Shown: one piece after another, positions 31,048 through 46,992 of the stretch
Layout: each line of letters opens with the position of its first letter
Numbering within the stretch: position 1 is the first letter of the stretch
Origin: a virus
Taxonomy: Duplodnaviria > Caudoviricetes
Strand: one strand, 5' to 3'
Virus record (IMG/VR): IMGVR_UViG_3300034108_000283
Location: 32,001-96,000 of that record
Length of the DNA: 64,000 nucleotides
Translations under genes and position numbers: made by a program
The notes under the pieces: generated by a model
What the model saw: only the letters and a program-made list of their open reading frames with translations
What the model was told of the DNA's origin: nothing
Databases searched by the model: none

Positions 31048-31060
31048 TATCAAATATTTT

Positions 31061-31076: not shown

Positions 31077-31097
31077 ATATTTATAAAAACAATAATC

Positions 31098-32072: not shown

Positions 32073-32088
32073 TTAAAAATAAATTATC

Positions 32089-32718: not shown

Positions 32719-32848
32719 AATATATATTATGAAAAATAATAGTTTAACAGCATATCTAGAAAAAAAATATGGTAGAGATTCTGGAAAAATTATAAGTAAT
32801 TATAATAGTCAGAAACAAAAATATGTTCAACAAGGTAAAAAATAAATC

Positions 32849-33400
32849 ATGGATATTTTAAATTGGCTGTATACTAAAGCAGCAGGTCTAGTAAAGACCA
32901 AAGCAAATGATCCTAACACAGATCTAATAGCATTAGGTGCTAATGTAGGATTTAACAGAAGAGATGATCAGTATCAGACTTATGGAATGACTCTTAAAAA
33001 CTGTGTGCAATCAGGTTGCACGGGTAACACTAAGCATTATGAGTTAAATATTACAGCTACTAATGTAGTAACAGTAGATACTCCCCGTGGTATTATTGAT
33101 ATTACTGGTATGGGTTCATCTGTTCCTTTAACCCCTGCGTTAGCTTATGGTAGTTCAGTAGGTTTCTTAATTAATAACCCAGATCTAGATCTTAGTATAG
33201 CAAACAGAGATAATATATATTTACAGTATTCTGTATATTACAAAAACACTATAACTGATAATGCTATTCCATATTTAATATCTACAGGAGTTGCAAATGG
33301 ATTAGAGTTTAATCTTTATAATGCTAACCCTACATTAGCTGGTGCTAATAACTGGGATGGTGATTTGTATGTTTACTATGAACTATACACACTTAAATAG
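32849..33400 (+). CDS. Putative virion protein (MDILN family 3)
   Basis: Diverged shared N-terminus MDILNW...RRDDQY. Confidence 0.65.
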   Translation: MDILNWLYTKAAGLVKTKANDPNTDLIALGANVGFNRRDDQYQTYGMTLKNCVQSGCTGNTKHYELNITATNVVTVDTPRGIIDITGMGSSVPLTPALAYGSSVGFLINNPDLDLSIANRDNIYLQYSVYYKNTITDNAIPYLISTGVANGLEFNLYNANPTLAGANNWDGDLYVYYELYTLK

Positions 33401-33452
33401 TACCTGTATTTTCAGATGGTGCAAATTGGGTATTAGGATAAAATAAATAATC

Positions 33453-34370
33453 ATGGATATTCTAAACTTTATTTCTTGGATTAAAGGCAGGAGACAAGTT
33501 ACTACTGTTGATGCCGCTAAGACTCTTATACCCGTAGGTTTAAAAGATGGACGTAGAGATGATGAGTATATTGCTGGTGCCATTACAGTAGAAGACTTTG
33601 TAGCACAATATGGTACTGGTCCGCAAGGACCTCCAGGGATTCCAGGAGCCAATGGTGCTCCAGGTATACAAGGTCCTATTGGACCTCAAGGCGTTCCTGG
33701 ACCGGTGGGACCCGCAGGTCTTACATGGCAAGGTCTATGGTCAGCAGCTACAATATATGCAGATAATGATTCAGTATCTTTTGGAGGAGCTAGTTATTTC
33801 TGTTATAATCCTGCAGGTGTAGGACCATCAGCTCTAAATCCAACTGTAGATACAGCTAACTGGGCTTTATTAGCAGCAGAAGGCGCAACAGGTCCCCAAG
33901 GCCCACAGGGTATAGCTGGATCAGGATCACCAAGTTTTGCATCATCAGGTTTGTTTACTACTAATAGTCTTACAAATGATCAGTTGACATCAATACTAAT
34001 TCCAGCAAATACTTTTTCTGGAAATGAAGGTTTATCTTTTTCTGCACAATTTATTAAAGATCAACCGACTATAGCTACAACAACATATTATATAAACACT
34101 AGTAATACATTATCAGGAGCTACATTATTAGCTACATTTACTTCACTAAGTACATCAAGGTATATGGGTATAGTTAGAACAATGTATATTGATGGTTCAT
34201 CTACATATGTTTTTAATGTATCTGCCAGTAGCAATTCTGATAATGCTGTAAGCAATGTGGCACCATCAACAGTAACAATAGATTGGACACAAAATCAATA
34301 CTTAATTGTTGCAGGAAGAGTAGATAATGCATTATATGCTTTAACATGCAGAGGAGTAAGAATTTATTAA
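33453..34370 (+). CDS. Collagen-like fibre protein (MDILN family 4)
   Basis: Shared N-terminus and GxY repeats. Confidence 0.75.
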   Translation: MDILNFISWIKGRRQVTTVDAAKTLIPVGLKDGRRDDEYIAGAITVEDFVAQYGTGPQGPPGIPGANGAPGIQGPIGPQGVPGPVGPAGLTWQGLWSAATIYADNDSVSFGGASYFCYNPAGVGPSALNPTVDTANWALLAAEGATGPQGPQGIAGSGSPSFASSGLFTTNSLTNDQLTSILIPANTFSGNEGLSFSAQFIKDQPTIATTTYYINTSNTLSGATLLATFTSLSTSRYMGIVRTMYIDGSSTYVFNVSASSNSDNAVSNVAPSTVTIDWTQNQYLIVAGRVDNALYALTCRGVRIY

Positions 34371-34380
34371 AACTAAAATT

Positions 34381-34992
34381 ATGTCAATAGGAAATTTAAA
34401 AGATTACGGTAATAAAGGTAATAACCTACCATATCAGTGGAGAGTATTACAAGGTTTACAAGAGATAGCTAATCAAACAGCACAACCATTAACTTGTGTA
34501 GAAGATTCAATAGCTATTTGCGCAGGTGGTAATTTATTAACAAGTACCACAATTGGTGCTGATATAGGCTTAGATGTAAATATCATAGGAGGTGTAACAT
34601 TAGAAGTAAATTTAGATGCAGCTAATGATCAAGTAGGTATTTATGGTTATGTAAATGGTGCATCTGGTTCTCCAGTTCCTTTAAATGTAAATGCTACAGG
34701 TCAAGTTGCTATTCAAGATGGAGGTAATTCTATTACGGTTGATGGTGGTACTGGTGTTCAAAGAACTCCTAATTTTCTTAGACCTACTGGAACATCTGGA
34801 ACTGTAACTGCTGGTGCATATTCAGTATCTTTTGCAAGTGTTGGAACTGCTAATGCTATTGTTGGTGGTATTACTTTAAAGACAGGAGAAACATTGAACT
34901 TTGATGCCGGAGCCATTAATAATACATTAGCTGCTATTACTTATGATACAACAACTGCCGGAGCTGAGTTAATAATTATAACTCTTACATAA
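34381..34992 (+). CDS. Putative structural protein
   Basis: MSIGNLKDYGNKGNN.P.Q N-terminus; Gly/Thr-rich. Confidence 0.6.
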   Translation: MSIGNLKDYGNKGNNLPYQWRVLQGLQEIANQTAQPLTCVEDSIAICAGGNLLTSTTIGADIGLDVNIIGGVTLEVNLDAANDQVGIYGYVNGASGSPVPLNVNATGQVAIQDGGNSITVDGGTGVQRTPNFLRPTGTSGTVTAGAYSVSFASVGTANAIVGGITLKTGETLNFDAGAINNTLAAITYDTTTAGAELIIITLT

Positions 34993-36242
34993 TGGCTACT
35001 ATAGTATCTACTTCCAGCATATCTAATCAATCAATATTGGCTAATGACCCAATGTTGGGGGATGCATTTGGTAGATTAAGAGTATCAAATCCATTAACAC
35101 TATTTGATTCTTCACATAGATACCGAGATAATGGTTTATGGGCTACATCTACAGCAAGTGGAGGAGCAGCTGTGTTTAGTGCAAATGAAGGTTTAGTAAA
35201 CCTAAATGTAAATACAACAAGTGGTTCACAAGTTCTTAGGGAAACATTTAAAGTGATGTCATATCAACCAGGTAAGTCTTTACTTGTAATGAACACATTT
35301 GTAATGGCTCCTGCTCAAACTAATCTTAGACAAAGAGTAGGTTACTTTGGTACAAATAATGGGCTTTACTTACAGCTTAATAATTCTACTTTAAGTTTTG
35401 TAGAAAGAAGTTTAGTTACAGGTGTAGTTACAGAATCAGTAGTTAATCAAGCTTCTTGGAATGCTGATCCATTAGATGGTAATGGTCCATCAGGAATAAC
35501 TTTAGATATTACTAAGGCTCAGATTTTATTCATGGATATTGAGTGGTTAGGAGAAGGTACTGTAAGATTAGGTTTTGTTATTGATGGTAACTTCATTGTA
35601 TGCCATAGATTTAATCATGCTAACTTAATTACATCTACTTATATTACTACAGCTTCATTACCACTTAGATATGAGATAACTAATACAGGAGTAACAGCTA
35701 GTCCAAGTACATTAAAACAAGTTTGTTCTACTGCAATATCTGAAGGTGGTTATGAACTTAGAGGGGCGCAACAAGCTATTGGTACTCCAATACTCACTCC
35801 AAGAACTTTTGCAGTAGCAGGGACATTTTATCCTATTGTAGGAATAAGACTTAAAGCTACTACATTAGATGCTGTTGTTATTCTTACTGCTGTATCTTTG
35901 TTAGGATTAGGTAATGGTAAAAACTATGCATGGAGAGTTTTAAATGGGACTGCAATAACGGGAGGGGCTTGGACTCCTGCTTCAGCTGATTCCTCAGTAG
36001 AATATAATCTTACAGGTACATCAACTACAGGTGGTAGAGTATTAGCACAAGGATATATAAATTCATCCAATCAAGGTTCTCCAAGTATGGATATACTAAA
36101 AGAAGCTTTATTTGCAGCTCAACTAGAAAGAAATACTTTTACAGGAGTAGCATTTGAAATAGTAATTGAAATGGCTATTGATGCTACAGGAGGAACTTTA
36201 GGAGCTTATGCTTCAGTAGATTGGGAAGAAATAAGTAGATAA
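34992..36242 (+). CDS. Putative virion structural/tail protein
   Basis: DAFGRLRVS.P.TLFDS...YQPGKS...EWLG.G.VR.GF family seen in aquatic phages. Confidence 0.65.
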   Translation: MATIVSTSSISNQSILANDPMLGDAFGRLRVSNPLTLFDSSHRYRDNGLWATSTASGGAAVFSANEGLVNLNVNTTSGSQVLRETFKVMSYQPGKSLLVMNTFVMAPAQTNLRQRVGYFGTNNGLYLQLNNSTLSFVERSLVTGVVTESVVNQASWNADPLDGNGPSGITLDITKAQILFMDIEWLGEGTVRLGFVIDGNFIVCHRFNHANLITSTYITTASLPLRYEITNTGVTASPSTLKQVCSTAISEGGYELRGAQQAIGTPILTPRTFAVAGTFYPIVGIRLKATTLDAVVILTAVSLLGLGNGKNYAWRVLNGTAITGGAWTPASADSSVEYNLTGTSTTGGRVLAQGYINSSNQGSPSMDILKEALFAAQLERNTFTGVAFEIVIEMAIDATGGTLGAYASVDWEEISR

Positions 36243-36258
36243 ATAAAACATATTAATA

Positions 36259-37611
36259 ATGAGTACAGGAATTAATATAGGAAAATCAATTAAAGTACTG
36301 GATGAAGGTTCTACACTTACATCTGATGTAGCACAAATTGACTTTACAGGAACAGGTGTAACAGCTACAACTTCTGGTAATAATGTTACTGTAAATGTAA
36401 CAGGATCTTCTGGTGTTTGGGGTATATCAAATGCTAGTGGAGTTTATACTTACTATGCTACATTAACATTAGCTATGGCTGCTGCAACAGCAGGTCAAAC
36501 AATTGAAATGTTTGCAGATGTAACAGCAACAAGTGTTGTCACTATTAAACCTGATGTTATAATTCAAGGTAACGGTCATACATACACATACTCTGGAAAT
36601 ACAGGAGATGTATTTGCAACCTCAGCTGGGGCAGGAACTTTTACATATTACTTTAACAATTTAACAATAAAAAGAGCAAATACAGCAACTTCAACAGGAG
36701 TAATATTTTCAGGAGATGGAACTGCATTTACTACATCTATAAATTTCAAATTTAATTCAGTATATATAATTTATACTACAACAACAGGCACTGCTTCAAT
36801 AACAACAACAACAGGGTTTGGAGTTTACGGGTGGTCATTTGATGGAGTAGATGTAATTGGTAATTCATCAGGACCTTTATTTGGCACTGCTTTTGCAGTT
36901 AGCAACATAAAAAATAGTAGAATAGAAAACACAGGAACGGGTGGATGTATAGCAACACCTAATATTACAGGCGGTTGTTCTTATGAAAATTGTTATATAA
37001 AAACTAATTCTGGAATAGGAATATTTTGCAATTATCCTTCAGATGTTATAAGAAATTGTACAGGTATATCATCAACAGGAACAGCATTTGCAGGACAATC
37101 AGGTGCATCTGCTTATGATTGTTTTGCTTTTTCAAATACATCCATAGCATTTAATGGATTAGTTTGTTATAATTGCACAGGACAAACAACAACTGGAAAT
37201 GCCTTTTATCAAGCAACTGGTTATAATTGTACTGGTAGGTCAACAACTGGATATACAGTAAGAGCATTTTCAAGTATGTCTAAATTTTACAATAGTTCAT
37301 TTTATTCTTCAGGCTCAATAACTGTTTATGATAATAATTACGGAGCATCATTTTATAACTGTTCAATAATTACAGATTATAATAATGCTGCTGGTCATGC
37401 TATTTCAATTGGTCCATCTTCAGGTAATCCTACTTTTGTAAATAACTATATTCAAGTATTTAATACATCTGCTAACTGTATAATAGGTTCAGCAGCTTTT
37501 ACTGGTGTAATTACAAACACAGTATTTAAAGGAGCAACAACTCCAATAAATGCTAATGTTACTTTATCAGCAGTTACTATTAATACAACTTATAATAATA
37601 TCACAATATAA
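36259..37611 (+). CDS. Tail spike with right-handed beta-helix (pectin lyase-like)
   Basis: Repeating NC/NS rungs, Ser/Thr/Gly-rich. Confidence 0.6.
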   Translation: MSTGINIGKSIKVLDEGSTLTSDVAQIDFTGTGVTATTSGNNVTVNVTGSSGVWGISNASGVYTYYATLTLAMAAATAGQTIEMFADVTATSVVTIKPDVIIQGNGHTYTYSGNTGDVFATSAGAGTFTYYFNNLTIKRANTATSTGVIFSGDGTAFTTSINFKFNSVYIIYTTTTGTASITTTTGFGVYGWSFDGVDVIGNSSGPLFGTAFAVSNIKNSRIENTGTGGCIATPNITGGCSYENCYIKTNSGIGIFCNYPSDVIRNCTGISSTGTAFAGQSGASAYDCFAFSNTSIAFNGLVCYNCTGQTTTGNAFYQATGYNCTGRSTTGYTVRAFSSMSKFYNSSFYSSGSITVYDNNYGASFYNCSIITDYNNAAGHAISIGPSSGNPTFVNNYIQVFNTSANCIIGSAAFTGVITNTVFKGATTPINANVTLSAVTINTTYNNITI

Positions 37612-37934
37612 TGGACACTTATAAAATAGACATATTAAAGCTTTCTGATACTTTGGTATCTCAAAATTTAAAAACTCAAGAGCAAAAATATTTTACAATT
37701 TCTGAATTAACAGGTGAGTATTTAGTGGTATATAATGATTTCATGTCTTTAGTAAATAGTAAAATAACTATTGAATATAATCAAGTATTTGTTGGTGAGG
37801 AAGTTGTAAAAAGATTTGTAGGTATAAATGTTGATGGAATTAATGTAGGAGACTTTCAAGAAGTACTCTATGATAATTTAACTGTAGAAGAAAAATCTAC
37901 ATTTGATGTATTCTATACTGTATTTACTAAGTAA
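37611..37934 (+). CDS. Hypothetical protein (possible spike chaperone)
   Basis: Coupled to the spike gene. Confidence 0.55.
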   Translation: MDTYKIDILKLSDTLVSQNLKTQEQKYFTISELTGEYLVVYNDFMSLVNSKITIEYNQVFVGEEVVKRFVGINVDGINVGDFQEVLYDNLTVEEKSTFDVFYTVFTK

Positions 37935-38007
37935 AAATACCTAGTAACCTATTGTAGTTTCAATTATTTTTAGTATATTATAAGTATATATTTATAACAT
38001 AATAACA

Positions 38008-38274
38008 ATGGCCACAGAATCACTACCAATAGCAATTTTTATAGCAAGTACCATTTTTGCTATATTTGGATACTTTTTAAAAATGATCCATGGAGATGTC
38101 AGAAAAAATACAGAAGAACTTGGAAAGTTAAAAGGTAAAATAGAACTAGTACAACAAGAAACACAGATAAAATATCAAGCATTGCAAGAGCTTACTCAGC
38201 TTGAGATAAAAAACTTAGCAAAGAATGTAGGTGAATTATCAGATGCTGTTAAGTTGTTTATATCTAACAAATAA
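38008..38274 (+). CDS. TM plus coiled-coil protein (lysis cluster)
   Basis: N-terminal TM helix then heptad-rich region. Confidence 0.6.
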   Translation: MATESLPIAIFIASTIFAIFGYFLKMIHGDVRKNTEELGKLKGKIELVQQETQIKYQALQELTQLEIKNLAKNVGELSDAVKLFISNK

Positions 38275-38276
38275 AT

Positions 38277-38528
38277 ATGAAAGAATTGAAAGGAAGATGG
38301 AAAGCCAAAACACCTAAGTTTTGGAAAAGAGTACAACAGATTGCAATAGTAGCCGGAACAATAGCAGGTGTTATTATTGCAGCTCCAGTGGCTTTACCAG
38401 CAGCCATTATAACAGTAGCTGGATATGTAGCAACAGCAGGAACAGTAGCTGCTACATTATCACAATTAACAGTAGAAGATGCTAAAGAACTAGAAGATGT
38501 TGACAATTCAACAGACAGTTTGAAATAG
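38277..38528 (+). CDS. Putative holin
   Basis: RW.AKTPKFWK.VQ N-terminus, two TM helices, charged tail. Confidence 0.6.
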   Translation: MKELKGRWKAKTPKFWKRVQQIAIVAGTIAGVIIAAPVALPAAIITVAGYVATAGTVAATLSQLTVEDAKELEDVDNSTDSLK

Positions 38529-38562
38529 ATTACTAAATTTTAATAACTAAAAACAAATAAAA

Positions 38563-38865
38563 ATGGCAAAGAAAAAAGAAGTTAATGTTGAGTTAGAAGT
38601 AACAACAAAAACTAAAAGAGCTTATGTTAAGAAAGATAACAAAAACTTAGATGTAGTTATTGATACACCTAAAGTTGATGTAGAAGTACACGCTACAGAA
38701 ACAGAACAACATGTTAAAATTGATACTAAGAAATTAGATATTGAAATTACTAAAACTGCAGAAGGTTCTAAAGTTACAATAGATGCTGATAACAAAATAC
38801 TAGAAAAAGTAGGAACTACATTTAGCTCTTGGATACTTAAACGTCTAGCTAAAAAAAATAGTTAG
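38563..38865 (+). CDS. Hypothetical protein with internal beta repeats
   Basis: Repeated V.IDT.K.DV.V units. Confidence 0.6.
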   Translation: MAKKKEVNVELEVTTKTKRAYVKKDNKNLDVVIDTPKVDVEVHATETEQHVKIDTKKLDIEITKTAEGSKVTIDADNKILEKVGTTFSSWILKRLAKKNS

Positions 38866-38890
38866 TAATAAGGTTTAGTAATAACCTGCA

Positions 38891-40006
38891 ATGAAAAATT
38901 TACCAAAAGAAGAGTTATTAAGCAGGCTTGAAGCAATTAATAGAAGTAACGCTATTATTTACTTTGACCTTGGTGGCACCATCACAGGTGTTAATGACAT
39001 TTTTTTGGAAGCAATGGGTTACGGTAAAGGTAATCATGAAGACATTATAGGTAAGCACCATAGCATTTTTGTATGTGATGATTACTCAAGATCACTTGAG
39101 TATGAAAAGTTTTGGGATATCTTAAGAAGTGGTAAGCATTACACTGGAGAGTTTGAAAGAAGAAAAAAAGATGGAAGTCTTATAAATCTTCAAGCAACTT
39201 ATAATCCTATTTTAAATGAAGATGGTAAGATTACCAAGATAATGAAAATTGCTACTGACGTTAGTGTAATTGTCAATAGTAAGAAACAGATAGATGCAAT
39301 CAATAGAAGCACTGCTCTGATTAATTTTAACATAGATGGTTTTATAACAGATGTAAATTCTATATTCTTAGAAACCATGGGTTATAAGGGCAATGAAAAA
39401 GCCAAAGTCATTGGAAAACATCACAGTGTTTTTGTAAGCTATGAGTATTCTAAGTCTGATGAATATGCTAAGTTCTGGGAAAGCTTGAGAAAAGGTAAGT
39501 ACTTTGATGGAATCTTTGAAAGAAAAAAAGTAGATGGTTCTACTGTTTATTTGCAAGCATCTTACAACCCTGTATTTGACAGCAAAGGAAATATTACAGA
39601 TGTAGTTAAAATTGCAACTGATGTTACTGAAGCTGTAACTAACAAGGCAAAAATAGATGATCTTACAAAAAACTTACAAATAGAACTTGAGAATTCTCAA
39701 AAACTGAAAAACTCAATAGAGATAGAAAAGGATGCAGCTTTAAATGACTTAGATGTAATGATGAAAAAAAGTCAAAGTGAGCTGATAAAAATTATTGTCA
39801 AAGTTGCATTGTCTGTTATAGTTGGGGTTGGAGTTGTGACAACAGTATTATACTGGATGGCTATTATAACAAATCAAGACACACAGATTATTGGTTCAAC
39901 ATGGAGTAACATGTTTAGTGTATTATTAACAAATGCCTTCTCTATAGTTGGTACAATCATGGGTATCAAGTATGCTACTCAGGAAGGCGGTAAAGAAAAA
40001 AAATAA
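38891..40006 (+). CDS. Tandem PAS/PAC sensor, coiled coil and two TM helices
   Basis: Two copies of AINRS.A.I.F...G.I..VN..FL..MGY.....IGKHHS.FV......EY.KFW..LR.G....G.FER.K.DG....LQA.YNP.....G.I....KIATDV, the PAS type of BdlA-like chemoreceptors; no MCP or kinase domain. Confidence 0.9.
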   Translation: MKNLPKEELLSRLEAINRSNAIIYFDLGGTITGVNDIFLEAMGYGKGNHEDIIGKHHSIFVCDDYSRSLEYEKFWDILRSGKHYTGEFERRKKDGSLINLQATYNPILNEDGKITKIMKIATDVSVIVNSKKQIDAINRSTALINFNIDGFITDVNSIFLETMGYKGNEKAKVIGKHHSVFVSYEYSKSDEYAKFWESLRKGKYFDGIFERKKVDGSTVYLQASYNPVFDSKGNITDVVKIATDVTEAVTNKAKIDDLTKNLQIELENSQKLKNSIEIEKDAALNDLDVMMKKSQSELIKIIVKVALSVIVGVGVVTTVLYWMAIITNQDTQIIGSTWSNMFSVLLTNAFSIVGTIMGIKYATQEGGKEKK

Positions 40007-40010
40007 AATT

Positions 40011-40286
40011 ATGAAAAAGATTTTTAAAGAATTAGTATCAGATGCTAATGAGATAAATGAGCAAAGCTTTGTTGGAGTAGTAGCATTTTTTGCTATGGTA
40101 TTTATTTTAATAGTTGATGTAGTTACAGGTATTTGGGGTAAAGAACTGGTCATAAAAGAATTTATCTTTGATGGCTTTATGATCATTACTCTTGGAGCCT
40201 TTGGAATTACTACAGCAGGTAAAATTATGTCAAACAAAAAAAACAATCAAAATGAAAATAACCAAGACGGGGAAAGCGGGAATTGA
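40011..40286 (+). CDS. Two-TM holin-like protein (start MKKIFK)
   Basis: Two TM helices, polar tail, overlaps the lysozyme start. Confidence 0.6.
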   Translation: MKKIFKELVSDANEINEQSFVGVVAFFAMVFILIVDVVTGIWGKELVIKEFIFDGFMIITLGAFGITTAGKIMSNKKNNQNENNQDGESGN

Positions 40287-40710
40287 GATGATTAAAGCTT
40301 TTGAAGGGTTTAGAGGAACTCCTTACAAATGTTCTGCAGGTGTCCCTACAATAGGATACGGAGCTACTTTTTATCCAGGTGGTAAAAAGGTAACAATGAC
40401 AGATGCAGCTATAACAGAAGAACAAGCTGTTGAACTGTTAGCAAACATGCTTGTAAGTTTTGAAAAATATGTAGATAGCTATTGTGTAGATACTATCACA
40501 CAAAATCAGTTTGATGCATTAGTTTCATTTGCTTACAACTTAGGACCAGCAAATTTAAAATCTTCTACATTACTTAAAAAAGTAAATGCAAATCCTAATG
40601 ATGAGTCAATCAAATTAGAATTCCTAAAGTGGGTTAAAGCTGGAGGTAAAACATTAAAAGGTCTTGTAAGAAGAAGAGAGGCTGAAGCAGAATTATACTT
40701 TAAAAAATAG
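40252..40710 (+). CDS. Endolysin, GH24 lysozyme
   Basis: FEG....Y....GVPTIGYG.T, QNQFDALVSFAYNLG, GLVRRR.AE. Confidence 0.95.
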   Translation: MKITKTGKAGIEMIKAFEGFRGTPYKCSAGVPTIGYGATFYPGGKKVTMTDAAITEEQAVELLANMLVSFEKYVDSYCVDTITQNQFDALVSFAYNLGPANLKSSTLLKKVNANPNDESIKLEFLKWVKAGGKTLKGLVRRREAEAELYFKK

Positions 40711-40714
40711 AACC

Positions 40715-41176
40715 ATGCAATTAAGTAAAAATTTATCATTAGCAGAAGTAACAAGAAGTGAAACTGCAAAGAGAAAAGGAATTAGCAATATGCCAACTCC
40801 TGAGCACATTGAGAACTTTAAAAAGTTAGCTGAGAATGTCTTTCAGCCAATCCGTGAGCACTTTGGTGTTCCTATTCATATTTCATCTGGGTACAGAAGC
40901 AAAGCTTTGAATACTGCTGTTGGAGGAAGTTTGTCCTCACAACATTGTCAAGGTGAAGCAATTGATATTGATATGGATGGTACATCAATAACCAATGCTC
41001 AAATCTTTAACTTTATCAAAGACAATTTGAATTTTGATCAAATGATTTGGGAATTTGGTACAGACACTAATCCTGACTGGGTTCATGTATCTTATGAATC
41101 TACAGGTAAACAACGTAAACAAATTTTAAAAGCTATTAAACAGGGTGGGAAAACAATTTATACACCTTATAAATAA
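40715..41176 (+). CDS. Peptidase M15 family endolysin
   Basis: SSGYRS..LN..VGG...SQH..GEAID...WVHVS. Confidence 0.9.
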   Translation: MQLSKNLSLAEVTRSETAKRKGISNMPTPEHIENFKKLAENVFQPIREHFGVPIHISSGYRSKALNTAVGGSLSSQHCQGEAIDIDMDGTSITNAQIFNFIKDNLNFDQMIWEFGTDTNPDWVHVSYESTGKQRKQILKAIKQGGKTIYTPYK

Positions 41177-41182
41177 AAAGTA

Positions 41183-41341
41183 ATGAAGTTTAGAAACAAC
41201 TGGAAAGGCTCAAGAAGACAGTGGGATAAAATAATGCTAAGACTGAGAATCTCAGCATTAGATATCTTTACATTAGAACTAGATTATTCCAGAGACTTCT
41301 ATCTTCTAACAGTTTTAAACTTTACTATTAAAAACAGATAA
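41183..41341 (+). CDS. Small hypothetical protein (52 aa)
   Basis: MKFRNNWKGSRRQWDKIMLRLRIS...; fills the gap. Confidence 0.55.
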   Translation: MKFRNNWKGSRRQWDKIMLRLRISALDIFTLELDYSRDFYLLTVLNFTIKNR

Positions 41342-41343
41342 CT

Positions 41344-41637
41344 ATGAAAAATGGATTAAAAGGAGTTACAGATGCTACAGTATTCTGTAAGTCAATGCAA
41401 AAAAATAGCCCTAAACCAATGATTAGATCAATGAAAAGCTATGAAGTAGGGGGTGCTACTGAACAATGCGGACCTGGTGATAGAGGAAAAGGTTGCAGAA
41501 AAAAAACAAAGTATAAAAGCAGTGGTAGATCAAGCAGTGGTGGTGATGCTACTTTAGTGGGAAAAATAGCTGGAGGATTAGCTGGTGTAGGTGCTGCACT
41601 TGGTCTTGGTAAATATGTAAAGAATAACAAAGATTAA
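41344..41637 (+). CDS. Basic protein with YEVGG motif and C-terminal hydrophobic helix
   Basis: ORF track. Confidence 0.55.
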   Translation: MKNGLKGVTDATVFCKSMQKNSPKPMIRSMKSYEVGGATEQCGPGDRGKGCRKKTKYKSSGRSSSGGDATLVGKIAGGLAGVGAALGLGKYVKNNKD

Positions 41638-41660
41638 GTTAACTACTTAAAGTATACAGA

Positions 41661-41690
41661 TCCAGGTATGTACTATGCCTGGATTTTTGT
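41661..41690 (+). terminator. Intrinsic terminator
   Basis: ATCCAGG/CCTGGAT plus T-run; TATATTTG promoter follows at 41722. Confidence 0.7.
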
Positions 41691-41752
41691 TTTTAAATAT
41701 ATCTAGTTTAAACTTTTATTGTATATTTGTCTAAACTTAAAATTAAAAACCA

Positions 41753-42058
41753 ATGGAAAACCAACAAGAACAAATGGAGAATCTATCTCCAGAACAGCTA
41801 GCAGCAAGAAAAGAAGAGATGAAACAATTCTTTGAAGAGGCCTTACCTTACTTAAAAGCACAAGCTGAATATGAAAAGTTATTAGCTGATATCTCTGAAC
41901 TTAAGTTAAGAAGACTTCAATCAGATCATCAGTATGCAATGGCTATGTATCAGATAAACAATCCAGAACCATTAGAAGAAGATCTTGATGAAGAAGGTGT
42001 GGAATTAGAAGGTAGAGTTAATTCTGAAACAGCTAAAAGAAAGCTTAAAAAGAATTAA
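41753..42058 (+). CDS. Coiled-coil hypothetical protein
   Basis: ORF track. Confidence 0.65.
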   Translation: MENQQEQMENLSPEQLAARKEEMKQFFEEALPYLKAQAEYEKLLADISELKLRRLQSDHQYAMAMYQINNPEPLEEDLDEEGVELEGRVNSETAKRKLKKN

Positions 42059-42060
42059 TA

Positions 42061-42441
42061 ATGGCACTTGTTAATCAGGTACAGAAGCGTGTCAAGATGC
42101 CTAAATGGGATGTTGTAAAATTTCAGATACTCACACATTGTTATATTAACCGTATAACCATGAGTGAATCTGATTTGAACTGTCTTACCTTGTTAAGTTT
42201 TAATGAACCTATAGAACTTACAAACTTTTGTTTGGATGCTTCTGCAGAAGAAGATTGGATATTTAAGTCACCACAGACTGTTAGAAACTGTATTAATAAA
42301 GCAGAGAAAAACAATCTTGTGATAAAAGATACAGATAATAAGAAATTGATTATGCTGAATCCAAACTTAATGATTCAGACTAAAGGTTCAATTTTACTTG
42401 ACTATAAATTCTTAGGCAATGATACCGAAGAAGGCCAATAA
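42061..42441 (+). CDS. Putative wHTH DNA-binding protein
   Basis: S.QTVRN.I.K..K..L HTH-like pattern. Confidence 0.5.
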   Translation: MALVNQVQKRVKMPKWDVVKFQILTHCYINRITMSESDLNCLTLLSFNEPIELTNFCLDASAEEDWIFKSPQTVRNCINKAEKNNLVIKDTDNKKLIMLNPNLMIQTKGSILLDYKFLGNDTEEGQ

Positions 42442-42808
42442 GTTATATAAACAGTTGTCAGAAGATTTAAATGTTGAAGAGGATTTGATAGATAAATTTA
42501 TTGAACACTACTACAAAGATATAAGGTCAGCATTGGTAAACTTAAAATATCCAAGAATCAATGTTGATGGTTTAGGTCACTTTGTAGTAAAACCCACTTT
42601 AGTAAGATCTCATATACCAAAATTTACTAAAGATTTATCTGAACATGATACTTCAACATTTACAGCTTACCATACTAAAAAAGGCTTAGAGTTAAAGTTA
42701 GATCAGCTTATAGAACTAGAACATAAAATAAGTTTAGAGGAAATAAGAAAAGAAGAATTTAAAAAAAACAAAAATGAAAGCAGTACTAAAAACAATCTGG
42801 GAGAATAG
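42419..42808 (+). CDS. HU/IHF-like DNA-binding protein
   Basis: I.V.GLG.F.VK motif. Confidence 0.55.
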   Translation: MIPKKANKLYKQLSEDLNVEEDLIDKFIEHYYKDIRSALVNLKYPRINVDGLGHFVVKPTLVRSHIPKFTKDLSEHDTSTFTAYHTKKGLELKLDQLIELEHKISLEEIRKEEFKKNKNESSTKNNLGE

Positions 42809-43082
42809 AAAAGGTATCCTAGAAGGTATTAAGAACTCAATCATTAGAGATGAGTTTGTAGAAGACATAGCACGGATGAGACATGACATCTGTGATGGCT
42901 GTGAGCACTTAGATACTAAAGGTAAAGAATGTGCTGTAAAGAAAACACAACCCTGTTGTGCTGAGTGTGGATGTTCATTAGCATTTAAGACCCGGTCATT
43001 ATCATCAGAGTGCCCATTAGGTAAATGGGATGCTATAGCTACAGAAGAACAAGAAGAAGAATTAGATAACCTTAAAGATTAA
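42774..43082 (+). CDS. Cys-rich zinc-binding protein
   Basis: R..IC..C...C..CGC.L..K.R.....CP.GKW. Confidence 0.65.
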   Translation: MKAVLKTIWENRKGILEGIKNSIIRDEFVEDIARMRHDICDGCEHLDTKGKECAVKKTQPCCAECGCSLAFKTRSLSSECPLGKWDAIATEEQEEELDNLKD

Positions 43083-43086
43083 TATT

Positions 43087-43428
43087 ATGTATATGGATCC
43101 AAATAAATATCCTATTGGAATGTTAGTTAATGACCCTACTCAAATAGTTAATACTAATCCTATTCCTGGACAAACTATAACTACTACCACAGCAGATGGA
43201 ATATTTAGTAGAATGAACACAGTTCTGGAAGACCCATGGGTACATCCTTTGAAAGCTATAGAAGATAAAATTACTAAGCTAGAAACAGAGAACAAGTTTC
43301 TAAGACTAAAGATACTTTCTATAGAGGGTAAGTTTACACAGGAAGAGGTAACTAATATCAGAAAGATGTTGATATCTGAAGATGAAGCATCTAGAACATT
43401 AGCTAATACTATTATAGAAAATGCTTAA
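43087..43428 (+). CDS. Hypothetical protein
   Basis: Ends with the ML.SED motif. Confidence 0.6.
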   Translation: MYMDPNKYPIGMLVNDPTQIVNTNPIPGQTITTTTADGIFSRMNTVLEDPWVHPLKAIEDKITKLETENKFLRLKILSIEGKFTQEEVTNIRKMLISEDEASRTLANTIIENA

Positions 43429-43431
43429 AAG

Positions 43432-44262
43432 ATGATAAAGTTTAATGCAGATAATCATAGTTACACCAGTATAGATGGAGAAGCTATTGACTGGATAAGT
43501 GTAACAACACTTGTTTCCCATTTTAAGAAACCTTTTGATGCTAAAGCAGTAGCAGAGAAAGTAAGTAAAAGCAAAAGATCTAAATGGGCTGGAGTAGATC
43601 CTAAGATTATCCAAGAGATCTGGTATAATGAATCTACTAGATCCACTACTCTTGGTACATGGTATCATAACCAAAGAGAAGATGACTTGTGTGCATTAGC
43701 ATCATTAAGTGTAGAAGGAACTACTATACCTGTATTTAGACCTGCAGAGGTTAAAGAAGGTGTCAAGATAGCTCCATCACAAAAATTAGAACCAGGCGTG
43801 TATCCAGAACATATGGTCTATTTAAGATCAGCAGGTATCTGTGGACAATCAGATTTAGTGGAAGTAGTCAATGGTAAAGTAAACATCATTGACTACAAAA
43901 CTAATAAAGAGATAAAGAAAGAGTCATATGTAAATTGGGAAGGAATATCTGATAAGATGTCTCATCCTGTAAATAACTTAGATGACTGTAACTTTTATCA
44001 TTATGCTTTACAGCTCAGCATTTATATGTATATTATATTGAAGCATAATCCTAAACTAAGACCCGGAAATATATTTATACACCACATAACATTTGAAGTA
44101 GAGAAAGAAGATCAGTGGGGATATCCTATTGCCAAACTAGATGACAATGGAGAACCTATAGTAAAAGAAGTAATACCAATGGAAGTACCTTATTTAGTAG
44201 ATGAAGTGCATGCTATTATTCACTATCTTCATGACAACAAAGCCAAAATTAAAAAGAAATAA
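43432..44262 (+). CDS. PD-(D/E)XK exonuclease
   Basis: H.Y, SVTT, GT..H, G..DL, IIDYKT and Y.LQLS.Y motifs. Confidence 0.85.
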   Translation: MIKFNADNHSYTSIDGEAIDWISVTTLVSHFKKPFDAKAVAEKVSKSKRSKWAGVDPKIIQEIWYNESTRSTTLGTWYHNQREDDLCALASLSVEGTTIPVFRPAEVKEGVKIAPSQKLEPGVYPEHMVYLRSAGICGQSDLVEVVNGKVNIIDYKTNKEIKKESYVNWEGISDKMSHPVNNLDDCNFYHYALQLSIYMYIILKHNPKLRPGNIFIHHITFEVEKEDQWGYPIAKLDDNGEPIVKEVIPMEVPYLVDEVHAIIHYLHDNKAKIKKK

Positions 44263-44264
44263 CA

Positions 44265-44780
44265 ATGCTGATTAAACTATTTGATGTACAGAATAAAACA
44301 GTTGTTCCTACTGAACACTGTTATACACTGAAGTCTCTTAAAGATATAATGGATGATTATCCAGATGACTATCTTAAAATATATCAGTATTTATTTTATA
44401 TGACATGCCCGGATCCAGATATGAATCCTTTCTTCCATACACCCCATATAGAGAAAGAATCATTAATCATGCGGGAGATAGAAGCAGAATTCTCTACAGA
44501 AGACACTGAGATATATAATGCATTAAGATTCTGTGAGAAACTATATGAAACTCCAACCTCACGCGCGTACGGAGGTATGCAGAAAGCACTAGATAGAATA
44601 TCTAATTACCTAGCTACTGCACAGATTACTGATGGTAAAGATGGTAATATAGCTCAGATAAGAGCATTAGCAAAAGACTTTGATGGTATTAGACAATCCT
44701 TTAAAGGAGTCTACAAAGATCTACAGGATGAACAACAAAGCAAAGTCCGTGGTGGTCAGGGTCTTGCATATGATAGTTAG
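44265..44780 (+). CDS. Putative terminase small subunit
   Basis: Directly upstream of terL; C-terminal RGG. Confidence 0.45.
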   Translation: MLIKLFDVQNKTVVPTEHCYTLKSLKDIMDDYPDDYLKIYQYLFYMTCPDPDMNPFFHTPHIEKESLIMREIEAEFSTEDTEIYNALRFCEKLYETPTSRAYGGMQKALDRISNYLATAQITDGKDGNIAQIRALAKDFDGIRQSFKGVYKDLQDEQQSKVRGGQGLAYDS

Positions 44781-44782
44781 TC

Positions 44783-46987
44783 ATGAGTCAAATCTTTGAA
44801 GACATACCAACTTGGGATAATGGTAATTGGACTACCACATCTTTTGATAGCAGAGAAGAGTTTGCTACATATCTGCGCTCAATATTTAAGGAACCCGGTC
44901 AGTATGAGTTTGATGATGTTAGTACAGAGTTATTTGTATCAGAATCAAATAAGTTTAGAAAGCTTGGTATATATACTACAGCTCCTTTTAAGTCTAAAGA
45001 CTTTATTAACTACTGGGATGACCAGAAAGCTAAATGCAGAAAAGGTGTGCTGATTAAACACGGGACTAAAGCTTGGTTCTTAGCAAGAGAGTACTACATG
45101 TGGCTTAACTTCCTACCTATCTTTAACAAAGAGATACAACAATTTGGATTTGCTGATATCCGGGATGCTCAGTATCATATGGCTTTATATGAACTATTAG
45201 CAGAACTAAACTATAAACATGTAGCTATCTTAAAGAAACGTCAGATAGCATCTTCCTACTACCATATGGGTAAGCTTATAAACCAGCAATGGTTTGAAGC
45301 CGGTGTTACTCTTAAAGTTGGAGCAAGTCTCAAGGATTATATAAATGAGAAAGGATCCTGGAAATTCCTACAGGAATATGCAGCATTCTTAAATGAGCAT
45401 ACTGCATGGTACCGTCCTATGTCACCAGACAAAGTAATGATGTGGCAACAAAAGATTGAGGTCAGAAAAGGTAATAGAAAAGCTGAGGTAGGTCTTAAAG
45501 GTACTATACAAGGTATGTCATTTGAGAAAGATCCTACAAATGGTGTAGGGGGTCCAGTTAAGTACTTCTTTCATGAGGAAGCAGGGATTGCTCCTAAGAT
45601 GGATCAGACATATGAGTACATGCGTCCTGCCATGAGATCTGGTTTAATTACAACAGGGATGTTTATAGCTGCAGGATCTGTGGGTGACTTGTCTCAATGT
45701 GAGCCATTAAGAAAAATGATTGTAAAACCTTTAGATAATGATGTGTATTCAGTAGAATCAAATCTTGTTGACTCTAAAGGTACTATTGGTTTATCCGGAC
45801 TGTTCATACCTGAACAATGGTCAATGCCTCCATATATTGATAAATATGGTAACTCACTTGTTACTGAAGCCTTAGAAGCTTTAGACAAACAGTTTGAAGT
45901 TTGGAAAAAAGAATTAGACCCAGAGACATACCAGTTGAGGATTTCTCAGCATCCAAGAAATGTAGAAGAAGCATTTGCACATAGAACAGTATCTGTATTC
46001 CCAACACATCTTGTTACAGCACAGGAAAGAAGAATAGAAGATAAAGAATATGCATATGAGTTCTTAGATATCTCAACAGATGAGAATGGGAAGCCTAGTG
46101 TTAAAGCATCTAATAAAAGACCTATAATGGAATTCCCTGTAACTAAGAATACAGAGGATAAAACAGGTGTACTTGTTGTATGGGAAAGACCAATAAAAGA
46201 TCCTGCATTTGGACAGTATTATGCATCTATTGACCCCGTGTCTGAAGGTAAGACAACTACCTCAGAATCATTATGTTCTATATATGTAATGAAAGCACCG
46301 GTAGAAGTAACTAAAGTAACAGGTACAGAGACAGAGACTTATATAGAACCAGATAAGATTGTAGCCGCATGGTGCGGAAGGTTTGATGATATTAATAAAA
46401 CACACCAGAGACTAGAGCTAATTATAGAGTGGTATAATGCATGGACAGTAATAGAGAATAACATCTCATTATTCATCCAGTATATGATATCTAGAAAAAA
46501 ACAAAGATACTTAGTACCTAAGAGTCAGATTATGTTCTTAAAAGATTTAGGAGCTAATGCTAATGTATTCCAGGAATATGGCTGGAAAAACACCGGTACT
46601 TTATTCAAAGCTCACCTTCTTAGTTATGCTATAGAATATACTAAAGAAGAATTAGATATAGAAACAAAGACAGACGGTACTATAGTTAGAACTAAATATG
46701 GTATAGAAAGGATTCCTGACCCTATGTTACTTAAAGAAATGAGAGCATATGCAGATGGAGTCAACGTGGATAGGCTAGTTTCATTCTGTGCACTTGTTGC
46801 ATTTATGAAAATACAGCAGTCTAATAGAGGTTATACAAGAAGAACAATCATGGATGATGCAGCTAAAAACTTGCAAAAGTCAGAAAATTTGTTTAAATTA
46901 AAGAGTAGTCCGTTCCGGCATATGGGTAAATCTTTTTATTCTGGAGGACAGGGATTTAAAAGATCCCCATTTAAGAATCTTAAATAA
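44783..46987 (+). CDS. terL: Terminase large subunit
   Basis: LKKRQIASSY Walker A variant, FFHEEAG Walker B, SIDP and D.LVSF nuclease motifs. Confidence 0.9.
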   Translation: MSQIFEDIPTWDNGNWTTTSFDSREEFATYLRSIFKEPGQYEFDDVSTELFVSESNKFRKLGIYTTAPFKSKDFINYWDDQKAKCRKGVLIKHGTKAWFLAREYYMWLNFLPIFNKEIQQFGFADIRDAQYHMALYELLAELNYKHVAILKKRQIASSYYHMGKLINQQWFEAGVTLKVGASLKDYINEKGSWKFLQEYAAFLNEHTAWYRPMSPDKVMMWQQKIEVRKGNRKAEVGLKGTIQGMSFEKDPTNGVGGPVKYFFHEEAGIAPKMDQTYEYMRPAMRSGLITTGMFIAAGSVGDLSQCEPLRKMIVKPLDNDVYSVESNLVDSKGTIGLSGLFIPEQWSMPPYIDKYGNSLVTEALEALDKQFEVWKKELDPETYQLRISQHPRNVEEAFAHRTVSVFPTHLVTAQERRIEDKEYAYEFLDISTDENGKPSVKASNKRPIMEFPVTKNTEDKTGVLVVWERPIKDPAFGQYYASIDPVSEGKTTTSESLCSIYVMKAPVEVTKVTGTETETYIEPDKIVAAWCGRFDDINKTHQRLELIIEWYNAWTVIENNISLFIQYMISRKKQRYLVPKSQIMFLKDLGANANVFQEYGWKNTGTLFKAHLLSYAIEYTKEELDIETKTDGTIVRTKYGIERIPDPMLLKEMRAYADGVNVDRLVSFCALVAFMKIQQSNRGYTRRTIMDDAAKNLQKSENLFKLKSSPFRHMGKSFYSGGQGFKRSPFKNLK

Positions 46988-46992
46988 GTGAT

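What the first reader, a model, noticed from the sequence alone, without database searches (positions are those of the whole stretch)
38891..40006. Tandem-PAS sensor with a two-TM tail embedded in the lysis cassette: possible signal-controlled lysis timing
Seen: two complete PAS/PAC repeats, then a roughly 45-aa coiled coil, two TM helices and a short basic tail (EGGKEKK). The gene lies between a holin-like gene (38277) and a second two-TM gene plus two endolysins (40011-41176), downstream of the late-promoter motif at 37971. Known: this PAS type occurs in soluble chemoreceptors such as Pseudomonas BdlA, where an MCP signalling domain follows; PAS domains often bind heme or flavin and sense O2 or redox. 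Inference: the enzymatic output has been replaced by a holin-sized membrane module, so it may be a holin or antiholin whose oligomerisation is gated by host redox or energy state. I know of no characterised example.
Basis: partly seen in the sequence, partly recalled or inferred. Interest (0 to 1): 0.85.

Follow-up and report, generated by a model that had tools for sequence, protein, structure and literature searches.

The report
Phage sensor fused to lysis-cassette membrane hairpin
This phage gene joins two PAS sensor domains through one long rigid helix to a virus-only membrane hairpin that sits among the cell-bursting genes, so the phage probably ties the moment of lysis to a signal it senses inside the host, though nothing has been tested at the bench.

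Summary
ORF 38891-40006 (371 aa) has two PAS domains, a roughly 50-residue helix, two TM helices and a basic tail. It lies 4 nt upstream of a 2-TM holin-like gene and two endolysins.

The C-terminal coiled-coil plus hairpin is a virus-only family with interchangeable inputs. In most members a small N-domain replaces PAS. That gene then follows a PAS histidine kinase and a lone receiver: 49 of 50 dereplicated clusters. Sensor-fused forms (PAS x2, PAS x1, GAF; 21 clusters) never have a kinase or receiver nearby.

The kinase PAS is 40% identical to both window PAS domains. Endolysins of three families lie within 1 kb of 17 of 21 fused clusters. TM2 is invariant (dN/dS 0.004). Linker lengths are fixed or vary in heptad steps.

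Best reading (0.55): a one-component sensor whose output is a lysis-associated membrane hairpin. Function, ligand and direction of control are untested.

This scan had already noted the unfused kinase-receiver-hairpin trio on other phage genomes. I found no description in print.

The parts
38891..40006 (+). Whole gene: PAS-PAS, signalling helix, 2-TM hairpin, basic tail (371 aa plus stop)
   Evidence: ORF list; Pfam; AF2 model at pLDDT 83.8; dN/dS 0.090
38948..39265 (+). PAS domain 1 (about residues 20-125)
   Evidence: Pfam PAS_3/PAS_9/PAS best stretches at 20-125; AF2 strands and helices 21-123; 40% identity to the PAS of phage histidine kinase L157:3281-4561, E 4e-24
39314..39628 (+). PAS domain 2 (about residues 142-246)
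   Evidence: Pfam PAS_4 at 142-249; AF2 142-244; 40% identity to the same kinase PAS, E 3e-24
39626..39781 (+). Cytoplasmic part of the long helix (coiled-coil or signalling helix, residues 246-297)
   Evidence: AF2 gives one helix 246-326; fixed 100-residue spacing from PAS end to TM2 in 71 of 74 unique PAS x2 proteins; heptad-stepped length in short forms
39782..39868 (+). TM helix 1 (residues 298-326)
   Evidence: Hydropathy peak 2.49; continuous with the cytoplasmic helix; dN/dS 0.108
39869..39910 (+). Short external loop (residues 327-340; 0 Lys/Arg)
   Evidence: Charge count; AF2 turn 327-331
39911..39967 (+). TM helix 2 (residues 341-359), the invariant core of the family
   Evidence: Hydropathy; dN/dS 0.004 and amino-acid identity 1.000 at dS 0.97, measured over residues 340-360; conserved across 36 diverse representatives
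39968..40003 (+). Basic cytoplasmic tail (residues 360-371; 4 Lys, 2 Glu)
   Evidence: Charge count
40011..40286 (+). 91-aa 2-TM protein with acidic C-tail. Candidate holin of a conserved small family; overlaps the lysozyme start
   Evidence: ORF and hydropathy; family alignment A5; unrelated to the hairpin, hhalign probability 1.2%; within 300 nt of fused PAS forms in 10 of 19 clusters
40252..40710 (+). GH24 phage lysozyme (endolysin 1). The start may be the TTG at 40192
   Evidence: PF00959 4.4e-43; phrog_7 endolysin 5.9e-57
40715..41176 (+). M15 peptidase (endolysin 2)
   Evidence: PF08291 2.5e-21; phrog_894 endolysin 5e-39
38008..38274 (+). 88-aa protein with an N-terminal TM and a coiled coil. 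First gene of the unit; role unknown
   Evidence: ORF and hydropathy; no family above threshold
38277..38528 (+).
   Evidence: ORF and hydropathy; no family
41658..41686 (+). Only plus-strand terminator-like hairpin in 37500-42200. Probable end of the 38008-41637 transcription unit
   Evidence: Terminator scan

Best explanation
The gene encodes a one-component signalling protein whose output is a membrane hairpin, not an enzyme or a DNA-binding domain. Shown: two cytoplasmic PAS domains are joined by a single rigid helix of about 80 residues to a two-helix membrane hairpin, with N and C termini inside and a short loop outside. Shown: the hairpin plus helix belongs to a phage-only family. Shown: the family is found beside endolysin genes of three different types. 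Shown: in most phages the hairpin gene sits directly after a PAS histidine kinase and a lone receiver, while in this phage and its like the sensor is fused to the hairpin and the kinase and receiver are absent. Inferred: a change in the PAS domains is passed down the helix and alters how the hairpin packs or assembles in the inner membrane. The signal is most likely redox or a flavin-type ligand, judged from the nearest solved relatives. Inferred: that change alters membrane permeability or proton-motive force, which advances or delays triggering of the cassette's holin. The holin here is probably the 40011-type gene. The endolysins at 40252 and 40715 would then be released. I favour an autonomous membrane action of the hairpin over specific binding to the holin. 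The reason is that TM2 is invariant across phages that carry different holin types.
For: Architecture. Family of the C-terminal 120 aa alone: 102 cluster representatives at E <= 1e-3 and 72 at <= 1e-10 among 1.84 billion. Their N-termini are a small unnamed domain (most), GAF (P0130, PF01590 2.5e-17), one PAS (P0132, P0124), a weak C2H2 finger (P0122) or PAS-PAS. Viral origin: at least 558 and at least 494 relatives in viral contigs, against 3 loci, all MAG contigs, in one genome each of 185,579 species. Relay or fusion, in clusters at 90% identity with at least 3 kb on both flanks: short forms have a kinase within 2 kb in 49 of 50 and a receiver in 49 of 50; fused forms have 0 of 21 for both. 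Whole genomes: the window's phage (98% complete) has no HATPase_c and no Response_reg. Three T4-like genomes with fused forms have neither, and two with short forms have both. Same sensor type: the kinase PAS is 40% identical to each window PAS, E 3e-24 and 4e-24. Lysis link: an endolysin (GH24, M15 or GH19, found by BLAST) lies within 1 kb in 17 of 21 fused clusters and within 3 kb in 31 of 50 short-form clusters. GH19 endolysins replace GH24/M15 next to the gene in L140, L102, L125, L132 and L139. In the T4-like locus L054 the gene lies 37 nt from GH19, 54 nt from a 40011-type gene and 855 nt from a Phage_holin_4_1 gene. Mechanical coupling: the PAS end to TM2 spacing is exactly 100 residues in 71 of 74 unique PAS x2 and 13 of 18 PAS x1 proteins; the rest are regex misses. 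The coiled-coil motif to TM2 spacing is 62 residues in 74/74, 18/18 and 103/105. Short-form helix lengths fall in residue classes 6, 0 or 1 mod 7 in 71 of 74 clusters, with period-7 vector strength 0.805 reached by 0 of 10,000 random sets. Selection: dN/dS 0.090 overall and 0.004 in TM2. Operon: 4-nt gap to 40011 and a single plus-strand terminator at 41658.
Against: No functional datum exists for any family member. A recognisable endolysin is missing within 5 kb in 17 of 50 short-form clusters and within 1 kb in 4 of 21 fused clusters. Examples are L100 with a DNA ligase upstream and L126 with a 5'-3' exonuclease downstream. Detection used BLAST with three endolysin types only, so these are lower bounds. 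Clusters are not phylogenetically independent, and lysis regions are also hot spots for accessory genes. The hairpin matches no holin or antiholin family; the only hit is weak, to phrog_1544 of unknown function. The ligand is unknown. Similarity to flavin PAS domains is modest: MmoS 6.3e-8, NifL 3.1e-7, Aer 2.8e-6. Dimerisation is assumed by analogy, not shown.
Confidence: 0.55

Rival explanations
1. Classical antiholin: the hairpin binds the cassette's holin (the 40011-type protein or a Phage_holin_4_1 holin) in the membrane and blocks it until the PAS signal releases it.
For: The gene is directly adjacent to a 40011-family gene: 6 of 12 PAS x2 and 4 of 7 PAS x1 clusters lie within 300 nt, and the gap is 4 nt in the window. 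Regulated antiholins are an established principle in T4 (abstract of PMC8385771).
Against: TM2 is invariant (dN/dS 0.004), yet 40011-type neighbours range from 37 to 98% identity. A 40011-family gene lies within 5 kb of only 10 of 50 short-form clusters. The same hairpin occurs with different holin types.
Confidence: 0.15
2. A membrane-anchored sensor with a role unrelated to lysis, such as superinfection exclusion, control of host respiration or transport, or tethering of a soluble factor. On this view it sits in the lysis region only because that region accepts accessory genes.
For: 17 of 50 short-form clusters show no recognised endolysin within 5 kb. Neighbours are highly mosaic. The gene moves between unrelated phage lineages like a moron: PAS x2 genes 83-93% identical to the window's lie in Gp23-positive T4-like records that lack the window's terminase.
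Against: Adjacency persists through replacement of the endolysin family (GH24, M15, GH19) and in both orientations. In layouts such as L243 the kinase, receiver and hairpin sit between two endolysin genes.
Confidence: 0.2
3. It is itself the phage's hole-forming holin, with a sensor attached.
For: It has two TM helices, N-in/C-in topology, a charged C-tail and a position upstream of the endolysins.
Against: A better-placed small 2-TM gene (40011) overlaps the lysozyme start. T4-like carriers also have a Phage_holin_4_1 gene. At 371 aa the protein is far larger than the roughly 60-150 aa I recall for holins. Holin helices usually vary, whereas this TM2 is invariant.
Confidence: 0.07
4. A truncated chemoreceptor or Aer-like decoy that interferes with host taxis, as the public name 'methyl-accepting chemotaxis protein' implies.
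For: JGI names many homologues that way. The PAS pair is 42% identical to that of a bacterial PAS-PAS protein with an MCP-like C-terminus, the latter judged by eye.
Against: Pfam lists no MCP signalling or HAMP domain at E <= 0.1. The C-terminus belongs to a virus-only hairpin family. The likely hosts are Bacteroidota, which from recall mostly lack flagellar chemotaxis.
Confidence: 0.02

Closest known systems
Phage T4 lysis inhibition: holin T with antiholins RI (periplasmic) and RIII (cytoplasmic)
   Same: Lysis timing is set by a phage-encoded regulator that responds to a signal and acts on the membrane step (abstract of PMC8385771, read).
   Different: RI senses superinfection from the periplasm and binds the holin's soluble domain. 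Here the sensors are cytoplasmic PAS or GAF domains, or a kinase-receiver relay, and the output is a conserved TM hairpin with no similarity to RI, RIII or T. No holin binding is shown.
Class II holins and pinholins, for example phage 21 S68 (recalled, not tested here)
   Same: Two TM helices, both termini in the cytoplasm, a charged C-tail, and a gene beside the endolysin.
   Different: There is a 296-residue cytoplasmic sensor plus helix in front. No family match. TM2 is invariant rather than fast-evolving.
Aer aerotaxis receptor (FAD-PAS, membrane hairpin, HAMP, MCP). PAS structures 8dik and 31cj were hit by sequence
   Same: A cytoplasmic PAS is followed by a membrane hairpin. Aer PAS matches PAS2 at E 2.8e-6.
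   Different: No HAMP or MCP signalling domain follows the hairpin. The hairpin is the end of the protein and belongs to a viral family.
Soluble PAS-PAS chemoreceptors of the BdlA type
   Same: Same tandem PAS type: 42% identity over residues 13-246 to the bacterial protein in MT836939.1.
   Different: That protein carries an MCP-like C-terminus (seen by eye; I did not scan it with Pfam) and has no TM hairpin. BdlA itself was not compared.
Bacterial LytSR two-component control of the holin-like and antiholin-like lrgAB/cidAB genes (recalled; only the search listing and abstract of PMC6997555 were seen)
   Same: A two-component system is linked to holin-like membrane proteins.
   Different: There the regulator acts on transcription through a DNA-binding domain and is cellular. 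Here the receiver has no output domain (145 aa, receiver only) and the link is by gene order and fusion, in phages.
Tandem-PAS redox and oxygen sensors MmoS, NifL, DosP, FixL and LOV-HK
   Same: Fold and sequence of the sensor part: Foldseek finds 3ewk at E 5.6e-16, then DosP, NifL and FixL; phmmer finds MmoS at 6.3e-8 and NifL at 3.1e-7. As in those proteins, a helix leaves the last PAS.
   Different: Their outputs are kinases, phosphodiesterases or partner binding. None ends in a membrane hairpin.

Membership tests
PAS domain superfamily | Sequence match above the curated cut-off, and the PAS fold | tested here: met
   PAS_3 87.3 bits against cut-off 25.6, two stretches; TIGR00229 93.7 bits against 22.9; AF2 gives two PAS folds and Foldseek matches tandem PAS sensors at E 5.6e-16
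Methyl-accepting chemotaxis protein (the public annotation) | MCP signalling domain, with or without HAMP | tested here: not met
   Neither is among the Pfam families listed at E <= 0.1. The C-terminal 120 aa have no Pfam, NCBIfam or PADLOC family
Phage coiled-coil plus 2-TM hairpin family (unnamed; weak link to phrog_1544) | Homology of the C-terminal helix and hairpin, with the conserved TM2 motif | tested here: met
   102 representatives at E <= 1e-3, best 2.1e-44; TM2 columns nearly invariant in alignments A1, A3 and A4; 62-residue spacing conserved
Phage coiled-coil plus 2-TM hairpin family | Sensory input supplied either by an adjacent kinase and receiver or by a fused sensor domain | tested here: met
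   Fused PAS-PAS here; no kinase or receiver in the 98%-complete genome; census 49/50 against 0/21
Holin (functional class) | Small membrane protein with at least one TM helix and a charged C-terminus, encoded next to the endolysin | tested here: inconclusive
   TM helices, tail and position are met. The size of 371 aa is atypical. No holin family match
Holin (functional class) | Forms lethal membrane lesions that release or activate the endolysin at a set time | not testable with these tools
   Needs expression and lysis assays
Antiholin (functional class) | Binds and inhibits the cognate holin | not testable with these tools
   No binding data. TM2 invariance against variable 40011 neighbours argues against a TM2 interface
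Flavin-binding PAS (MmoS, NifL, Aer, LOV group) | Bound FAD or FMN and its pocket residues | tested here: inconclusive
   The nearest solved sequences are all flavin PAS domains, E 6.3e-8 to 5e-3.
One-component signal transduction system | Input (sensor) and output domains in one polypeptide, without phosphotransfer | tested here: met
   PAS-PAS plus hairpin in one ORF; no HATPase_c or receiver in the genome

The most novel reading that the evidence does not exclude
Aquatic phages of at least two unrelated lineages, crAss-related and T4-like, carry a horizontally mobile sensory device. It is built either as one component (PAS or GAF fused) or as a kinase-receiver relay. It reads a cytoplasmic cue of host state, probably redox or energy, and sets the time of lysis through a universal invariant membrane hairpin. 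That would be a new class of output for bacterial-type signal transduction and a new principle of lysis control. The window's gene would be its minimal, single-polypeptide version.
Probability: 0.45. Interest if true: 0.9.

Novelty: categorically new. Interest (0 to 1): 0.8.

Why it matters
Lysis timing is a central life-history trait of phages. Apart from T4-type lysis inhibition, it is thought to be set by a holin clock that the phage does not adjust to host condition.

A phage-encoded sensor wired to a lysis-cassette membrane protein would mean phages actively measure the host's internal state before bursting it. The fused form in this window is the simplest test object. It is one gene of 371 codons with no phosphorelay, a sensor that can be purified for cofactor spectroscopy, and a hairpin that can be expressed alone.

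It also corrects a widespread annotation ('methyl-accepting chemotaxis protein'). It defines a new membrane output for PAS, GAF and two-component signalling. It could also provide a compact signal-gated membrane switch for synthetic biology.

Tried and rejected
Searches of annotated phages. tblastn of the protein found 3 records, none covering 80% or more. The best, MT836939.1, is high-GC bacterial-type DNA and not a phage homologue. The short form P0141 found nothing in 50,697 phage records. megablast of window 30000-50000 found nothing.

Family libraries. PHROGs gave no family for the protein and only weak phrog_1544 and phrog_2990 matches, both of unknown function, for short forms. NCBIfam and PADLOC gave nothing for the hairpin. 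The ESM Atlas gave no usable hit.

Structure and binding. Foldseek confirmed the tandem-PAS fold but cannot tell the cofactor. I did not fold-search the hairpin or the short-form model, because long helices give unspecific matches. Complex prediction on two copies of the C-terminal 120 residues returned no verdict (score 0.00, controls not run). That is neither for nor against self-association.

Expression. The look-up of sequencing runs (kind rna) listed no RNA holder.

Other ideas. That the hairpin is a diverged copy of the neighbouring 40011 gene is rejected: hhalign probability 1.2%. The late-promoter motif is not significantly enriched. There are no tRNAs in the window.

Literature. Five searches found no PAS-, GAF- or two-component-controlled phage lysis protein. 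For PMC7824862 I read the passages around the terms. For PMC8385771 I read the abstract and outline. Other papers were seen only as search listings with the start of the abstract. Supplementary files were not opened.
Full report
**1. What is there**

The window is part of a 115,896-bp virus record judged 98% complete. It carries a terminase, portal and major head gene at 44783-52747 and tail-fibre genes upstream. Its terminase is only 23-25% identical to those of crAss-like phages and Flavobacterium psychrophilum phages. The phage is therefore an uncultured, distant crAss-related phage, and the host is probably in Bacteroidota.

ORF 38891-40006 encodes 371 residues.
- Pfam finds two PAS stretches: PAS_3 8.6e-25 and PAS_4 at 142-249. 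NCBIfam agrees.
- Hydropathy gives two TM segments.
- Charge distribution gives an N-in/C-in hairpin. There are 4 Lys on the N-side of TM1, 0 Lys/Arg in the 14-residue loop and 4 Lys in the tail.
- An AlphaFold2 model on a 68-row alignment (pLDDT 83.8) shows the two PAS folds, one unbroken helix 246-326 that runs from PAS2 into the membrane, a 5-residue turn and a return helix 332-365.

The gene lies 4 nt upstream of a 91-aa 2-TM gene (40011). That gene overlaps a GH24 lysozyme, which is followed by an M15 peptidase. The only plus-strand terminator-like hairpin between 37500 and 42200 is at 41658. Genes 38008-41637 therefore read as one unit. The 'late promoter' at 37971 is not.

**2. The tail is a family of its own**

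I searched the last 120 residues alone against 1.84 billion cluster representatives. This gave 102 hits at E <= 1e-3 and 72 at <= 1e-10. Most are proteins of 130-230 aa in which the module is C-terminal. Their N-termini differ:
- a small unnamed domain in most;
- a GAF domain in P0130;
- one PAS in P0132 and P0124;
- a weak zinc finger in P0122;
- PAS-PAS in P0123 and the window.

No Pfam, NCBIfam or PADLOC family covers the module. PHROGs gives only weak hits to phrog_1544, of unknown function.

The family is viral. For the short form there are 3 loci, all MAG contigs, in one genome each of 185,579 prokaryote species. That scan's patterns would not have matched the window's own TM2 variant. 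Bacterial copies of the PAS x2 form are therefore not excluded.

**3. Relay or fusion**

In 79 short-form loci, the gene two places upstream (about 410 aa) and the gene one place upstream (about 145 aa) each recur in 71 loci. They are a PAS histidine kinase (HATPase_c 5.9e-13, PAS_4 3.8e-10) and a receiver-only protein (Response_reg 31.1 bits against cut-off 30.2). By eye, the kinase has an H-box and two N-terminal TM helices, and the receiver has the acidic pocket, acceptor Asp, Ser and Lys.

I pooled 378 module genes into 119 clusters at 90% identity and kept those with at least 3 kb on both sides.

| Form | Clusters | Kinase within 2 kb | Receiver within 2 kb |
|---|---|---|---|
| Short | 50 | 49 | 49 |
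| PAS x2 | 12 | 0 | 0 |
| PAS x1 | 7 | 0 | 0 |
| GAF | 2 | 0 | 0 |

At genome level the same split holds. The window's phage has neither domain. Three T4-like genomes with fused forms (95-100% complete) have neither. Two genomes with short forms have both.

The kinase's PAS is 40% identical to each of the window's PAS domains (E 3e-24 and 4e-24). The same kind of sensor therefore feeds the hairpin either through a phosphorelay or directly. This is a Rosetta-stone argument that the hairpin is the output of the sensor.

**4. Link to lysis**

Endolysins were detected only by BLAST with GH24, M15 and GH19 queries, so the counts are lower bounds.

| Form | Endolysin nearby |
|---|---|
| Fused (21 clusters) | within 1 kb in 17 |
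| Short (50 clusters) | within 3 kb in 31 and within 5 kb in 33 |

In the short form the kinase and receiver fill about 1.7 kb on one side.

Where BLAST saw no GH24 or M15, Pfam found a PG_binding_1 plus GH19 endolysin beside the gene. It lies directly upstream in L140, directly downstream in L102, L125, L132 and L139, and two genes downstream in L148. All 8 single-PAS loci of the second batch have GH19 or M15 as the next gene. In L243 the order is GH19, kinase, receiver, hairpin, M15. A Phage_holin_4_1 holin recurs in 37 of 79 loci.

Against this reading:
- 17 of 50 short-form clusters and 4 of 21 fused clusters lack a recognised endolysin at those distances.
- L100 and L126 have DNA-metabolism neighbours.
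- The clusters are not phylogenetically independent.

A random gene in a genome of 116 kb or more would lie within 1 kb of an endolysin gene only a few per cent of the time. That figure is my estimate, not a computed control.

**5. Signs of mechanical coupling and constraint**

Among 35 PAS x2 homologues (595 pairs), dN/dS by region is as follows.

| Region | dN/dS |
|---|---|
| Whole gene | 0.090 |
| PAS1 | 0.090 |
| PAS2 | 0.110 |
| Cytoplasmic helix | 0.091 |
| TM1 | 0.108 |
| TM2 (residues 340-360) | 0.004 |

TM2 has no amino-acid change although dS is 0.97.

The spacing from the end of the last PAS to the TM2 motif is exactly 100 residues in 71 of 74 unique PAS x2 proteins and 13 of 18 unique PAS x1 proteins. 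The remainder are motif-regex misses. From the coiled-coil motif to TM2 it is 62 residues in 74/74, 18/18 and 103/105.

In short forms the distance from the N-domain motif to TM2 takes the values 148, 155, 162, 169 and 176, or 140, 154, 175 and 182. In 71 of 74 clusters it falls in residue classes 6, 0 or 1 mod 7. The period-7 vector strength is 0.805, and 0 of 10,000 uniform-random sets reach it. The helix is thus lengthened only by whole heptads, which keeps the register between input and hairpin. From recall, the same is seen in sensor kinases with coiled-coil linkers.

The short form is modelled with the same geometry: a roughly 37-residue N-domain, one helix 38-158, a turn, and a helix 163-196 (pLDDT 84.7).

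**6. What the sensor may sense**

Foldseek finds tandem-PAS sensors: MmoS, DosP, NifL, LOV-HK and FixL. By sequence the nearest solved domains are all flavin-binding: MmoS 6.3e-8, NifL 3.1e-7, Aer 2.8e-6 and phototropin LOV 5e-3. A redox or flavin cue is the best guess and no more than that.

**7. Mobility**

PAS x2 genes 83-93% identical to the window's lie in roughly 160-kb records that encode a T4-type Gp23 capsid protein and have no relative of the window's terminase. These are L054 and L125. In L054 the gene sits 37 nt from GH19, 54 nt from a 40011-type gene and 855 nt from a Phage_holin_4_1 gene.

The window's own genome has no Gp23. L121, a single-PAS form, shares the window's terminase at 72% identity. 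Short-form carriers of 252-430 kb are Gp23-positive in 4 of 4 records that are at least 90% complete. The gene therefore moves between unrelated phage lineages and lands in lysis cassettes.

**8. Mechanism and rivals**

Most likely (0.55), the protein is a membrane-anchored one-component sensor. A PAS signal travels down the rigid helix and changes the packing or assembly of the hairpin. That change alters membrane permeability or proton-motive force, and so the triggering of the cassette's holin.

I favour an autonomous membrane action over holin binding. TM2 is invariant, while 40011-type neighbours vary from 37 to 98% identity. The 40011 family also accompanies only 10 of 50 short-form clusters. 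Whether the signal advances or delays lysis is open.

Rivals: antiholin by direct binding (0.15); a non-lysis membrane role (0.2); the main holin (0.07); a chemoreceptor decoy (0.02).

**9. Novelty**

Public records call the protein 'methyl-accepting chemotaxis protein' or hypothetical. Five literature searches and the passages read found no sensor-controlled phage lysis protein of this kind.

Earlier notes of this scan describe the unfused kinase-receiver-hairpin trio on other phage genomes, and one mentions fusions in relatives. These are unchecked AI notes. My census reached the same picture independently from this window. This window adds five things:
- the fused PAS-PAS form as the minimal version;
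- the genome-level complementarity;
- the invariant TM2;
- the fixed or heptad-stepped linker;
- the transfer between crAss-related and T4-like phages.

Noticed in passing
window 40011-40286, and alignment A5 from loci such as L150:1658-1912 and L293:8191-8436: The 91-aa 2-TM gene belongs to a conserved small family with an invariant N-terminal N..NE...G..F motif. The family occurs in both crAss-related and T4-like lysis cassettes and has no family in Pfam, PHROGs or NCBIfam. It is a candidate new holin family.
   Followed up: partly
L002 (GenBank MT836939.1, 'Bacteriophage sp.', 8,227 bp): This record in the phage collection reads as high-GC bacterial DNA. By eye it holds a serine-recombinase-like fragment, a 675-aa PAS-PAS chemoreceptor and two large GGDEF/EAL-like proteins. 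It is probably mislabelled or a transposon fragment.
   Followed up: no
L054 and L125 (T4-like records G009, G008) against the window: PAS x2-hairpin genes 83-93% identical at the protein level are shared by phages with unrelated capsid and terminase genes. This implies recent horizontal transfer, presumably within a shared host range.
   Followed up: partly
L157:5566-6813 and relatives (cluster 'u415a', 22 loci), just downstream of the hairpin gene in T4-like phages: A protein of about 415 aa with 7-9 hydrophobic segments, a long coiled coil and an acidic tail recurs directly after the hairpin gene. A 62-aa hydrophobic protein recurs just upstream of the kinase in 39 loci. Neither has a Pfam family.
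   Followed up: no
window 40252-41176: Two endolysins of different chemistry, a GH24 muramidase and an M15 peptidase, lie in tandem. Relatives carry one, the other, both, or a PG_binding_1-GH19 enzyme at the same place. The lysis cassette is highly modular.
   Followed up: partly
window 28230, 31060, 37970, 60085 (+ strand): Variants of the 15-mer at 37970 start 32-45 nt upstream of ORF starts, and a 1-mismatch copy lies at 53697. The motif is not enriched overall (19 against 12.4 +/- 3.5), so a late-promoter role is possible but unproven.
   Followed up: partly
G001:C1:48927-49232 and G003:C1:423859-424158: the genome search flags one stop codon (TGA, TAA) inside the HATPase_c matches of two short-form carriers. 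This is most likely the alignment running over the kinase stop into the overlapping receiver gene. I did not check it.
   Followed up: no
window 41344-41637: A 97-aa basic protein ends in a Gly/Ala-rich hydrophobic stretch. It is the last gene before the terminator of the lysis unit and has no family match. It could be a spanin-like or other envelope-disruption component.
   Followed up: no
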